In this document: in pieces, positions 40,292 to 41,688 of the stretch | How positions within the stretch are numbered: position 1 is the first letter of the stretch | Layout of the letters: each line of letters starts with the position of its first letter | From: the human T2T-CHM13v2.0 reference genome, Homo sapiens | Assembly: GCF_009914755.1 (NCBI RefSeq) | Contig: NC_060941.1 | Strand: one strand, 5' to 3' | DNA length: 64,000 nucleotides | Program-made: the position numbers and the translations under genes | The notes under the pieces: generated by a model | Databases searched by the model: none | What the model was told of the DNA's origin: nothing | Seen by the model: the letters and a program-made list of their open reading frames with translations, nothing else

Positions 40292-40406
40292 TGATTTGGA
40301 TCTGATCCATAATCCACCAGAACATCAACGAATTTCCTAAGGCCCAATAACGCCGCAACAAAAAGTGCTGTTTGGCCCAAGGAGTTAACTGCATCAACAT
40401 AAATTC
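40292..40406 (-). CDS. TEX14: TEX14 coding exon 2 (ankyrin repeat; [22 protein letters not shown]...GSDPNH)
   Basis: gcag|GA ATT ... AAT CA|gtaagt; 115 nt, phase 1 to phase 2; ankyrin consensus GxTALxxAA; absent from the ORF track. Confidence 0.96.
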
Positions 40407-41492
40407 CTGCAAAGGAAATATCAGAATCAATGCAAATATCAGAAAATTTCCTGAGAAGGAACTGGGTAGGGGGTGGGGGAATTACATATTTTTATAGTGT
40501 ACTTTCATATATTGCTGTGAGCTTTTTTTTAAAAAAAGTACAAAGAAGGTCTTCATTAGTAGCACATAGATATACTGGAAGGCAAACTCAGTGTTTATTC
40601 ATCAAAAATATTTGCAGAAAGTTGCATTGAAGCATTTAGTTCACCACACTGGCATATTATAAAATGGATTAAAATGGTTCTCAATCATGGGAAAGGATGA
40701 GGGAGGGACTAAAGATACTCTGTGTGTTGGGAGGAAGGCTATAACATAAAAAGAGCTCAATGGAATACAAGTCCTCACCTAAAAGATCTTACTAAAGTGT
40801 AAAGACTAATTCGACAAGGGAAAACAAAACACATAAAACAGACCAATTTCCAGTACTATCAAACAATGAGTCTGTGAATAATTAAAAGGGACTGAAAAAA
40901 AAGGCCAAAGTAGTAACATGACCAGGAAAATAAATAAAAAAGGAAAATATGCCTTACCTACCAAGAAAAAAATTTAGTCCTCCAGAAGACCAAAAAACAC
41001 CAAGAAATACAAAAATTGAAATCCCACAAGCCTGGAGGCGCAGTGGCTCACGCCTGTAATGCCAGCTCTTTGGGAAGCCGAGGCGGGTAGATCACTTGAG
41101 GCCAAGAGCTCGAGACCAACCTGGCCAACAAGGCGAAATCTCCTCTCTACTAAATATACAAAAACTAGCGGGGCTGGCTGCGTACCTATAGTCCCAGCTA
41201 CTTGAGAAACTGAAGCATGAGGACTGCTTAAGTGGCAGAGGCTGCAATGAGCCGAAATTGTGCCATTGCACTCCAGGACCACAGAAAAAAGCCCCAGCTC
41301 AAAAATAAAAATGCACATATCTCACATCTCTCAAAACACACAAAAAGCACTCTGCACAATCCTAAGTTAAAATATATGCATATATACACAACACATCTCT
41401 CAAAACACACATCTGGCATAACCTTATACTCAAAAATTAAAAACATGAGGAAACCAACTACTATTAACATCTGAAAAAAAAAAAAACCCAGA

Positions 41493-41688
41493 ACTACTCA
41501 GACTGCCTTCTCTAGAGAAGAACGGTCACCAACAGCAAACAGCAGTTAGAATAACGCAACACCAAACACTGCTATCCCACTCGTGAGAGAACACAAATAT
41601 CTCCCTCTCGCGGTTTCCAGCGTTCTACACGTTCAGATATACTCCTCGAGAAACACACTATAGAAATTATCCCTCAAAATATAGTCTT
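41493..41688 (-). ncRNA. Divergent U3 snoRNA (SNORD3-like) gene or pseudogene, about 196 nt, nested in a TEX14 intron in the same orientation
   Basis: Minus strand reads AAGACTATATTTTGAGGGATAATTTCTATAGTGTGTT...CTGAACGTGTAGA...GACCGTTCTTCTCT AGAGAA..GTCTGAGTAGT, colinear with human U3 (AAGACUAUACUUUCAGGGAUCAUUUCUAUAGUGUGUU...GUCUGAGUGGU); no poly(A) tail or TSD. Confidence 0.92.

What the first reader, a model, noticed from the sequence alone, without database searches (positions are those of the whole stretch)
40406..41688. Candidate snRNA-promoter read-through that splices into TEX14 (Integrator-gated alternative first exon)
Seen: the U3-like gene points the same way as TEX14 and starts 1.28 kb upstream of the coding exon 2 acceptor (40406). 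A strong minus-strand 5' splice site TAG|GTAAGG lies between them (exon end 40958). The sequence right after the RNA (TCTGGGTTTTTTTTTTTTTCAGA) is a poor match to the 3' box GTTTN1-4AAARYAGA. Established: Integrator terminates snRNA transcription, and its loss gives extended, spliced transcripts. Inference: leaky termination at a ubiquitously active promoter could make U3-TEX14 chimeric mRNA in somatic cells. It would lack the ATG exon; the first in-frame Met is in IVEFMQ, giving an ankyrin-less form that keeps the pseudokinase and the CEP55-binding GPPX3Y motif. Upstream ATGs may prevent translation.
Basis: inference. Interest (0 to 1): 0.75.

Follow-up and report, generated by a model that had tools for sequence, protein, structure and literature searches.

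The report
Decayed U3 gene copy inside TEX14
A worn but still transcribed copy of the U3 small nucleolar RNA gene lies in a TEX14 intron and is already described in print, while the idea that its run-on transcripts splice into TEX14 and make a shorter protein is untested and the sequence argues against any protein.

Summary
These are a U3-like gene at 41493-41688 (-), a T13 run just after it, a TAG|GTAAGG donor with exon end 40958, the exon 2 acceptor at 40406, and IVEFMQ holding the first in-frame Met.

The gene is known. It is ENSG00000212195, with Pol II bound in 7 of 7 ENCODE cell lines, and it traces to the amniote ancestor. One paper calls it a pseudogene. In mouse, the four U3B genes lie in the second intron of Tex14. 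Longer 3' ends at this copy are reported in monocytes with low Integrator subunit expression.

The new part, splicing into exon 2, has no support.
- Donors this strong occur at 0.39 per kb in the window, so at least one in 1282 nt has a chance of 0.39.
- The poor 3' box does not imply leakiness. True U3 genes fit the consensus almost as badly. The 3' box is dispensable for termination, and T-tracts terminate Pol II.
- The run-on path carries seven T>=6 tracts.
- A chimera would have a 1024-nt leader with 18 upstream ATGs and a closed frame.

Verdict: a known locus, a plausible but unshown non-coding by-product, and a very unlikely protein.

The parts
41493..41688 (-). U3-like snoRNA gene (ENSG00000212195 / LOC124904154). 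It is 196 nt. The 5' 60 nt are well kept, boxes C', B and C are altered, and about 22 nt of the 3' hairpin are missing.
   Evidence: Rfam RF00012 at 78.3 bits, model 1-219. It is 147 of 195 identical to a true U3 gene with 24 gap columns, and the first 60 nt are 52 of 60 identical. The box changes are also listed in PMC9055567.
41732..41749 (-). Candidate proximal sequence element (PSE), TCACCATCAGCATAATAT, starting at -61.
   Evidence: It aligns with TCGCCATCAGTTAAAAGT at -62 of the true U3 genes. It is the only collinear BLAST segment between the two upstream flanks. It has 4 mismatches to a recalled 18-nt consensus against 1 for true U3, and its 5' half is perfect.
41906..41913 (-). Octamer ATTTGCAT at -225 to -218, the position of the distal sequence element.
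   Evidence: One search found 6 matches in the window against 3.23 expected, and this one sits at the classic distance. It aligns with the CCAAT/octamer-like block of the true U3 genes.
41474..41486 (-). T13 run on the coding strand, 7-19 nt after the RNA 3' end.
   Evidence: The same T13 is in the GRCh38 flank printed in the supplement of PMC5967550. T-tracts are reported to terminate Pol II at snRNA loci.
41030..41149 (+). Part of an Alu element that is antisense to TEX14 and would lie inside the proposed first exon.
   Evidence: Metazoa_SRP-like match on the + strand, and the sequence as read.
40952..40960 (-). 5' splice-site-like 9-mer TAG|GTAAGG, exon end 40958.
   Evidence: It scores 5.75 bits on a recalled position matrix. 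The 14 annotated TEX14 exons gave 13 scorable GT donors ranging from -1.9 to 7.9, plus one GC donor.
40773..40781 (-). Second 5' splice-site-like 9-mer TAG|GTGAGG, exon end 40779.
   Evidence: 6.03 bits.
40594..40599 (-). The only AATAAA between the U3-like start and exon 2. It lies downstream of both donors.
40292..40406 (-). TEX14 coding exon 2, the acceptor of the proposed chimera.
   Evidence: Hub annotation. The acceptor context is shown.
40531..41290 (-). Six further coding-strand T>=6 tracts: 41285-41290, 40992-40997, 40966-40972, 40936-40941, 40895-40902 and 40531-40537.
   Evidence: With the T13 run that makes 7 tracts in 1086 nt, or 6.45 per kb, against 1.84 per kb on this strand across the window. 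Poisson P is 0.0045.

Best explanation
The locus is an old, independently transcribed copy of the U3 snoRNA gene, left behind at the ancestral U3 site in the TEX14 intron. In mouse that intron holds the four U3B genes. The working human U3 genes lie at 17p11.2.

The copy keeps an snRNA-type Pol II promoter, with an octamer near -220, a PSE near -60 and no TATA box at -30. It is transcribed in many somatic cell types. The RNA itself is degraded: boxes C', B and C are altered and a 3' hairpin is deleted.

Transcription normally ends close to the gene, through Integrator action and DNA-directed termination at the T13 run and the T-tracts that follow. When Integrator is low, longer run-on RNA accumulates.

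The two good 5' splice sites downstream are ordinary intronic cryptic sites. Any run-on RNA that uses them to join exon 2 would be a rare, non-coding by-product, probably unstable, and not a source of a shorter TEX14 protein.

Shown here or in print: the gene, its promoter motifs, Pol II occupancy, 3' extension under low Integrator, and the leader content of a chimera. Inferred: termination at the T-tracts at this locus, and the rarity and fate of any spliced product.
For: - U3 match at 78.3 bits, against 181.5-199.2 bits for the five 17p11.2 genes.
- Body identity is 75% with a 24-column gap, and the first 60 nt are 87% identical.
- PSE at -61 and octamer at -225. The stretch -40 to -1 holds no TATA box at about -30.
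- Print: the copy is called a nonfunctional pseudogene with its own promoter (passage of PMC3349704).
- Print: four U3B genes lie in Tex14 intron 2 in mouse (passage of PMC4057207).
- Print: 3' extensions at this copy in monocytes with low Integrator subunit expression (section 7 of PMC11259605).
- Print: the 3' box is dispensable for termination and T-tracts terminate Pol II at snRNA loci (abstract and section 7 of PMC11610936).
- Seven T>=6 tracts in the 1086-nt path, four of them before the 40958 donor.
- Donors are at chance density.
- A chimera would carry 18 or 20 upstream ATGs and a closed frame.
- The hub's RefSeq table lists no TEX14 exon between 40407 and 41688.
Against: - The run-on path holds two strong donors and no AATAAA or ATTAAA before them. 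That arrangement would favour splicing over early polyadenylation if the polymerase gets that far.
- Some polymerases read through T-rich terminators after INTS11 loss, and 3' extension at this very locus is reported.
- One paper reports phenotypes after overexpression and knock-down of this 'atypical U3' in fibroblasts (passages of PMC9055567). Another leaves neofunctionalisation open. So 'relic' may understate the RNA.
- I saw no RNA data, so the absence of a junction is not shown.
- The donor matrix and the PSE and 3' box consensus strings are recalled, not taken from a tool.
Confidence: 0.75

Rival explanations
1. Non-coding chimera gated by Integrator. When Integrator activity falls, run-on RNA from the U3-like promoter is spliced from 40958 or 40779 into TEX14 exon 2 and onward. 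This gives a measurable polyadenylated U3-TEX14 RNA in somatic cells. It is not translated into TEX14, but expression studies would count it as 'TEX14'.
For: - 3' extension at this locus with low Integrator.
- Two strong donors, and no AATAAA or ATTAAA before them.
- Precedent in C. elegans: snRNA read-through gives chimeric sn-mRNAs with the downstream sense gene, and those from U1 and U2 stay untranslated (abstract of PMC6390993).
- The same MS paper describes enhancer RNA running into LEP and being spliced.
Against: - No junction is reported in any of the papers found by searches.
- TEX14 is absent from the one readable supplementary table of the MS paper. Tables S1 and S2 could not be read.
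- Seven T-tracts lie in the path.
- TEX14 is described as testis-exclusive despite Pol II at this promoter in 7 of 7 somatic lines.
- No RefSeq exon is annotated there (hub table).
Confidence: 0.15
2. One reading: the chimera is an mRNA that is translated from Met144 (IVEFMQ) into a TEX14 lacking the ankyrin repeats but keeping the kinase-like region and the GPPX3Y motif.
For: Met144 is the first in-frame Met after exon 1, and GPPSLNY lies downstream of it.
Against: - The leader is 1024 nt with 18 upstream ATGs: 10 in the new first exon and 8 out of frame in exons 2-4. Several open reading frames of 50-114 codons.
- The TEX14 frame is closed by a stop 7 codons before the junction.
- With the other donor the leader is 1203 nt with 20 upstream ATGs.
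- Upstream reading frames that end far ahead of many exon junctions are expected to trigger nonsense-mediated decay (established knowledge, not tested here).
- U1- and U2-derived chimeras in C. elegans stay untranslated.
Confidence: 0.02
3. The U3-like RNA is not made from its own promoter. Instead it is cut out of the TEX14 intron, like ordinary intronic snoRNAs, so the question of run-on from 41688 does not arise.
For: It lies in the sense orientation in a TEX14 intron.
Against: - The promoter motifs sit at the classic distances.
- Pol II is bound in 7 of 7 somatic lines, where TEX14 is described as silent.
- Print states that U3 genes always have their own promoter.
Confidence: 0.03

Closest known systems
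Mouse U3B genes (U3B.1-U3B.4) in the second intron of Tex14
   Same: The same host gene and the same intron by name, with U3 genes inside it (passage of PMC4057207). PMC5967550 traces the human TEX14 locus to the amniote ancestor.
   Different: [quoted passage not shown] Human has one copy, which scores 78 bits against 199, has altered boxes and has lost a hairpin.
Human U3 genes at 17p11.2 (loci L001-L005)
   Same: The RNA family; a PSE at -61/-62; an octamer-like block near -220; no TATA box at about -30.
   Different: - 75% body identity.
- Box C reads TGGTGA instead of TGATGA.
- Box B and box C' are altered.
- About 22 nt of the 3' hairpin are missing.
- The upstream flanks are otherwise not significantly alike (best BLAST E of 1.3).
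- T13 lies at +7, where the true genes have T4 at +1.
C. elegans chimeric sn-mRNAs after Integrator disruption (PMC6390993)
   Same: An snRNA-type gene lies upstream of a sense-oriented coding exon. Read-through gives an RNA of the snRNA, the spacer and the downstream gene, and the U1/U2 kind is untranslated (abstract).
   Different: That is shown in worms with RNA data. Here only the 3' extension is reported, and no junction with TEX14 is known.
Read-through at other human snRNA-type loci and enhancers under low Integrator (PMC11259605)
   Same: The same paper shows 3' extensions at this U3 copy and at the U2 copy upstream of WDR74. It also shows an enhancer RNA that runs into LEP and is spliced.
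   Different: Splicing into the downstream gene is stated for LEP only, not for TEX14.

Membership tests
U3 snoRNA (Rfam RF00012) | Covariance-model score above the gathering score over the full model | tested here: met
   78.3 bits against 34, model 1-219. True genes score 181.5-199.2 bits.
U3 snoRNA (Rfam RF00012) | 5' domain (boxes A' and A) that pairs with pre-rRNA | tested here: met
   The first 60 nt are 52 of 60 identical to true U3. Pairing with rRNA itself was not tested.
U3 snoRNA (Rfam RF00012) | Intact box B/C and box C'/D motifs (box C UGAUGA) | tested here: not met
   Box C reads TGGTGA against TGATGA, and box B and box C' are altered. Box D, GTCTGAG, is kept (alignment). The same list is given in PMC9055567.
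U3 snoRNA (Rfam RF00012) | Complete 3' domain hairpins | tested here: not met
   About 22 nt are missing from the last hairpin. The deletion is shared with chimpanzee according to PMC5967550.
snRNA-type Pol II gene | PSE near -55 | tested here: inconclusive
   TCACCATCAG lies at -61 and its 5' half is perfect. There are 4 mismatches to a recalled 18-nt consensus, so it was not among the 8 hits with 3 or fewer mismatches. True U3 has 1 mismatch, at -62.
snRNA-type Pol II gene | Distal element with an octamer near -220 | tested here: met
   ATTTGCAT at -225 to -218.
snRNA-type Pol II gene | 3' box 9-19 nt after the RNA | tested here: inconclusive
   The best fit has 4 of 11 positions wrong, which is chance level. 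The five true U3 genes have 3 of 11 wrong, so the recalled consensus does not separate working from non-working U3 genes.
snRNA-type Pol II gene | Pol II occupancy and expression | not testable with these tools
   From print only: 7 of 7 ENCODE lines and the passages seen.
Integrator-gated snRNA read-through chimera (sn-mRNA) | 3' extended RNA when Integrator is low | not testable with these tools
   From print only: the text and the legend of Fig 2C of PMC11259605. I did not see the figure.
Integrator-gated snRNA read-through chimera (sn-mRNA) | Sense-oriented downstream exon with a usable donor in the run-on path | tested here: met
   Donors have exon ends at 40958 and 40779, and the exon 2 acceptor is at 40406. 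Donor density is at chance level.
Integrator-gated snRNA read-through chimera (sn-mRNA) | A junction joining the run-on RNA to the downstream gene | not testable with these tools
   No RNA data are held. No such junction appears in the papers found by searches.

The most novel reading that the evidence does not exclude
Under Integrator shortage (disease, stress or tumours), run-on RNA from this widely active U3-like promoter is spliced from 40958 or 40779 into TEX14 exon 2. The resulting non-coding U3-TEX14 RNA would account for part of the 'TEX14 expression' seen outside the testis, and it could serve as a readout of Integrator activity.
Probability: 0.15. Interest if true: 0.4.

Novelty: already known. 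Interest (0 to 1): 0.2.

Why it matters
TEX14 is treated as a germ-cell gene. Run-on from an always-on promoter inside it would be a trivial source of 'ectopic TEX14' signal in tumours or in states of low Integrator activity, and such signal would need to be told apart from true activation. The locus may also serve as a natural reporter. It pairs a weakly processed snRNA-type gene with a strong T-tract a few bases after it, an arrangement that could separate 3' box cleavage from DNA-directed termination. Neither point changes current understanding. The gene, its promoter and its 3' extension are in print, and the protein idea is very unlikely.

Tried and rejected
- **Pfam scan of the TEX14 N-terminus, to place the ankyrin repeats.** A look in PMC11811169 for the domain layout found nothing. 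That Met144 lies after the ankyrin repeats therefore rests on reading ankyrin-like text in the translation and on recall.
- **BLAST of the 412 nt upstream of the gene against the same stretch of a true U3 gene.** Nothing was significant (best E of 1.3). Only the PSE segment is collinear, so overall promoter homology is not shown.
- **Alignment A1.** I entered locus L002 in the wrong orientation, so that row is uninformative. The comparison rests on L001, L003 and L004.
- **Search of the window's own genome.** It scored only 50 of 29,704 candidates, and the window's copy is not among those listed.
- **Pol III reading of the T13 run.** Rejected, because there is no TATA box near -30 and Pol II occupancy is in print.
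- **CpG island at the promoter.** None; GC stays at or below 0.53 in 200-nt steps.
- **Supplements.** Tables S1 and S2 of PMC11259605 and the PDF supplements of PMC5967550 could not be read. They may hold TEX14 expression values and the structure figure.
- **Searches for a U3-TEX14 junction in print.** TEX14 was paired with 'snoRNA U3', 'Integrator', 'snRNA' and 'readthrough', and ENSG00000212195 was searched alone. No paper states one.

Full report
**The observation**

- Rfam's U3 model matches 41493-41688 (-) end to end, at 78.3 bits against a gathering score of 34. It is one of only two matches in the whole window that reach a gathering score.
- The gene points the same way as TEX14, and its first base is 1282 nt upstream of the exon 2 acceptor at 40406.
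- Right after the RNA come TCTGGG, 13 T and CAGA.
- TAG|GTAAGG has its exon end at 40958.
- In the translation of the annotated exons, the first Met after the start is Met144, in IVEFMQ, in exon 31504-31640. GPPSLNY, a GPPX3Y motif, lies further on.

**What the gene is**

A search of the window's own genome with the U3 model gave five genes at 17p11.2 scoring 181.5-199.2 bits. Only 50 of 29,704 candidates were scored, and the window's copy is not in that list.

I aligned the window copy to three of those genes. A fourth row, L002, was entered in the wrong orientation and is uninformative.
- The copy is 147 of 195 identical, with 24 gap columns. The first 60 nt are 52 of 60 identical.
- Box C reads TGGTGA instead of TGATGA. 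Box B and box C' differ, box D is kept, and about 22 nt of the last hairpin are missing.
- Upstream, the flanks are not significantly alike overall (best BLAST E of 1.3). The one collinear segment is the PSE region.
- TCACCATCAG starts at -61, against TCGCCATCAG at -62 in true U3.
- An exact octamer, ATTTGCAT, lies at -225 to -218.
- Against an 18-nt PSE consensus that I recalled, the copy has 4 mismatches and true U3 has 1. I therefore rate the PSE as present but weakened.
- There is no TATA box near -30 and no CpG island.

**What is in print**

- **Hoeppner et al. 2018** (PMC5967550; passages and a supplement table) describe this locus as ENSG00000212195. It has a model score of 69 and Pol II enrichment in 7 of 7 ENCODE lines. 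It traces to the amniote ancestor, carries a stem-loop deletion shared with chimpanzee, and has 78 variants. [quoted passage not shown]
- **Makarova and Kramerov 2011** (PMC3349704; passage) call it a nonfunctional SNORD3 pseudogene and note that U3 genes always have their own promoter.
- **A mouse paper** (PMC4057207; passage) states that the four identical U3B genes lie in tandem in the second intron of Tex14. I read the human copy as the remnant of the ancestral U3 site.
- **A pterygium study** (PMC9055567; passages) lists the same box changes and reports effects of overexpression and knock-down.
- **Low Integrator in multiple sclerosis** (PMC11259605; section 7 read in full; figures not seen). 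[quoted passage not shown] Integrator-sensitive run-on at this very gene is therefore already reported.

**The new part of the finding**

*The donor.* I used a position matrix built from frequencies that I recalled.
- TAG|GTAAGG scores 5.75 bits. The 13 scorable annotated TEX14 donors range from -1.9 to 7.9.
- 50 sites in the window's two strands score as well or better, which is 0.39 per kb. The chance of at least one in 1282 nt is therefore 0.39.
- A second site, TAG|GTGAGG with exon end 40779, scores 6.03. The chance of two or more is 0.09.
- These are ordinary cryptic sites, and they are usable in principle.

*The 3' box.*
- The best fit to GTTT-N(0-4)-AAARNNAGA downstream of the gene has 4 of 11 specified positions wrong. 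That is the commonest value in 5000 random stretches.
- The five true U3 genes have 3 of 11 wrong, a level that 31% of random stretches reach. The consensus does not tell a working U3 gene from this one.
- Davidson et al. 2024 (PMC11610936; abstract and section 7) report that the 3' box is needed for processing but dispensable for termination. They find that Pol II terminates at coding-strand T-tracts downstream of snRNA genes, with T6 the most enriched end motif, and that some polymerases pass these tracts after INTS11 loss.
- The path from the RNA end to exon 2 has seven T>=6 tracts in 1086 nt. That is 6.45 per kb against 1.84 per kb on this strand across the window (Poisson P 0.0045). T13 lies at +7, and four tracts precede the 40958 donor.
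- The sequence thus predicts good termination rather than a leak. That these tracts act at this locus is my inference.

*Features that would favour splicing.* There is no AATAAA or ATTAAA between the start and either donor. The only AATAAA is at 40594-40599, inside the would-be intron.

*The product.*
- A transcript from 41688 spliced at 40958 to exon 2 has a 731-nt first exon that contains the U3-like RNA and an antisense Alu.
- Its leader before Met144 is 1024 nt and holds 18 upstream ATGs: 10 in the first exon and 8 out of frame in exons 2-4.
- A stop lies in the TEX14 frame 7 codons before the junction.
- With the 40779 donor the leader is 1203 nt with 20 upstream ATGs.
- Translation from Met144 by scanning is very unlikely, and decay through the upstream reading frames is expected from established knowledge (not tested here).
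- This fits the worm precedent, in which U1- and U2-derived chimeras stay untranslated (abstract of PMC6390993).

*Evidence on whether the chimera exists.*
- None of the papers found with TEX14 plus 'snoRNA U3', 'Integrator', 'snRNA' or 'readthrough', or with the Ensembl id alone, states a U3-TEX14 junction.
- TEX14 is absent from the one readable supplementary table of the MS paper. Two larger tables could not be read.
- The hub's RefSeq table has no exon between 40407 and 41688.
- TEX14 is described as testis-exclusive while Pol II sits at this promoter in seven somatic lines. This argues that little or no spliced product forms in normal cells.
- No RNA data were available to me, so the junction is untested rather than refuted.

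**Verdict**

The gene, its own promoter and its Integrator-sensitive 3' extension are already known. The proposed splice into TEX14 is a reasonable but unsupported extension, of a kind known from worms. The proposed protein is very unlikely.

My probabilities:
- 0.75 that this is a transcribed relic whose downstream donors are incidental.
- 0.15 that a measurable non-coding chimera forms under Integrator loss.
- 0.02 that a shorter protein is made.

Noticed in passing
window 12251-12259 (-), donor of exon 12257-12447: The annotated TEX14 donor reads AAG|GCAAGC. This is a GC-AG intron rather than GT-AG.
   Followed up: no
window 41736-41875: The RefSeq 'enhancer' in the hub table spans -48 to -187 of the U3-like gene, which is the stretch between its PSE and octamer. 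It is probably the snRNA-type promoter seen in a reporter or open-chromatin assay.
   Followed up: partly
window 42105-42112 (+) and 40430-40437 (-): There are two more exact octamers (ATTTGCAT). One is about 420 nt upstream of the U3-like start on the other strand. The other is 24-31 nt upstream of the exon 2 acceptor. Six matches against 3.2 expected in the window is not remarkable.
   Followed up: no
window 41940-42040 (-): A short CpG-rich patch with a GGGGCGGGG motif lies at about -250 to -350 of the U3-like gene. GC stays near 0.51, so it is not a CpG island. The predicted lncRNA LOC105371842 starts about 960 nt upstream on the other strand (hub table).
   Followed up: no
window 5894-6041 (+): An Alu reaches the gathering score of the Metazoa_SRP model, 70.7 bits against 70. 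This is a repeat-derived match, not an SRP RNA gene.
   Followed up: no
window 40531-41486 (-): Coding-strand T>=6 tracts are 3.5 times denser just downstream of the U3-like gene than on this strand across the window. The five true U3 genes have a long T run (11-28 T) about 433 nt downstream and a T7 run about 570-587 nt downstream.
   Followed up: partly
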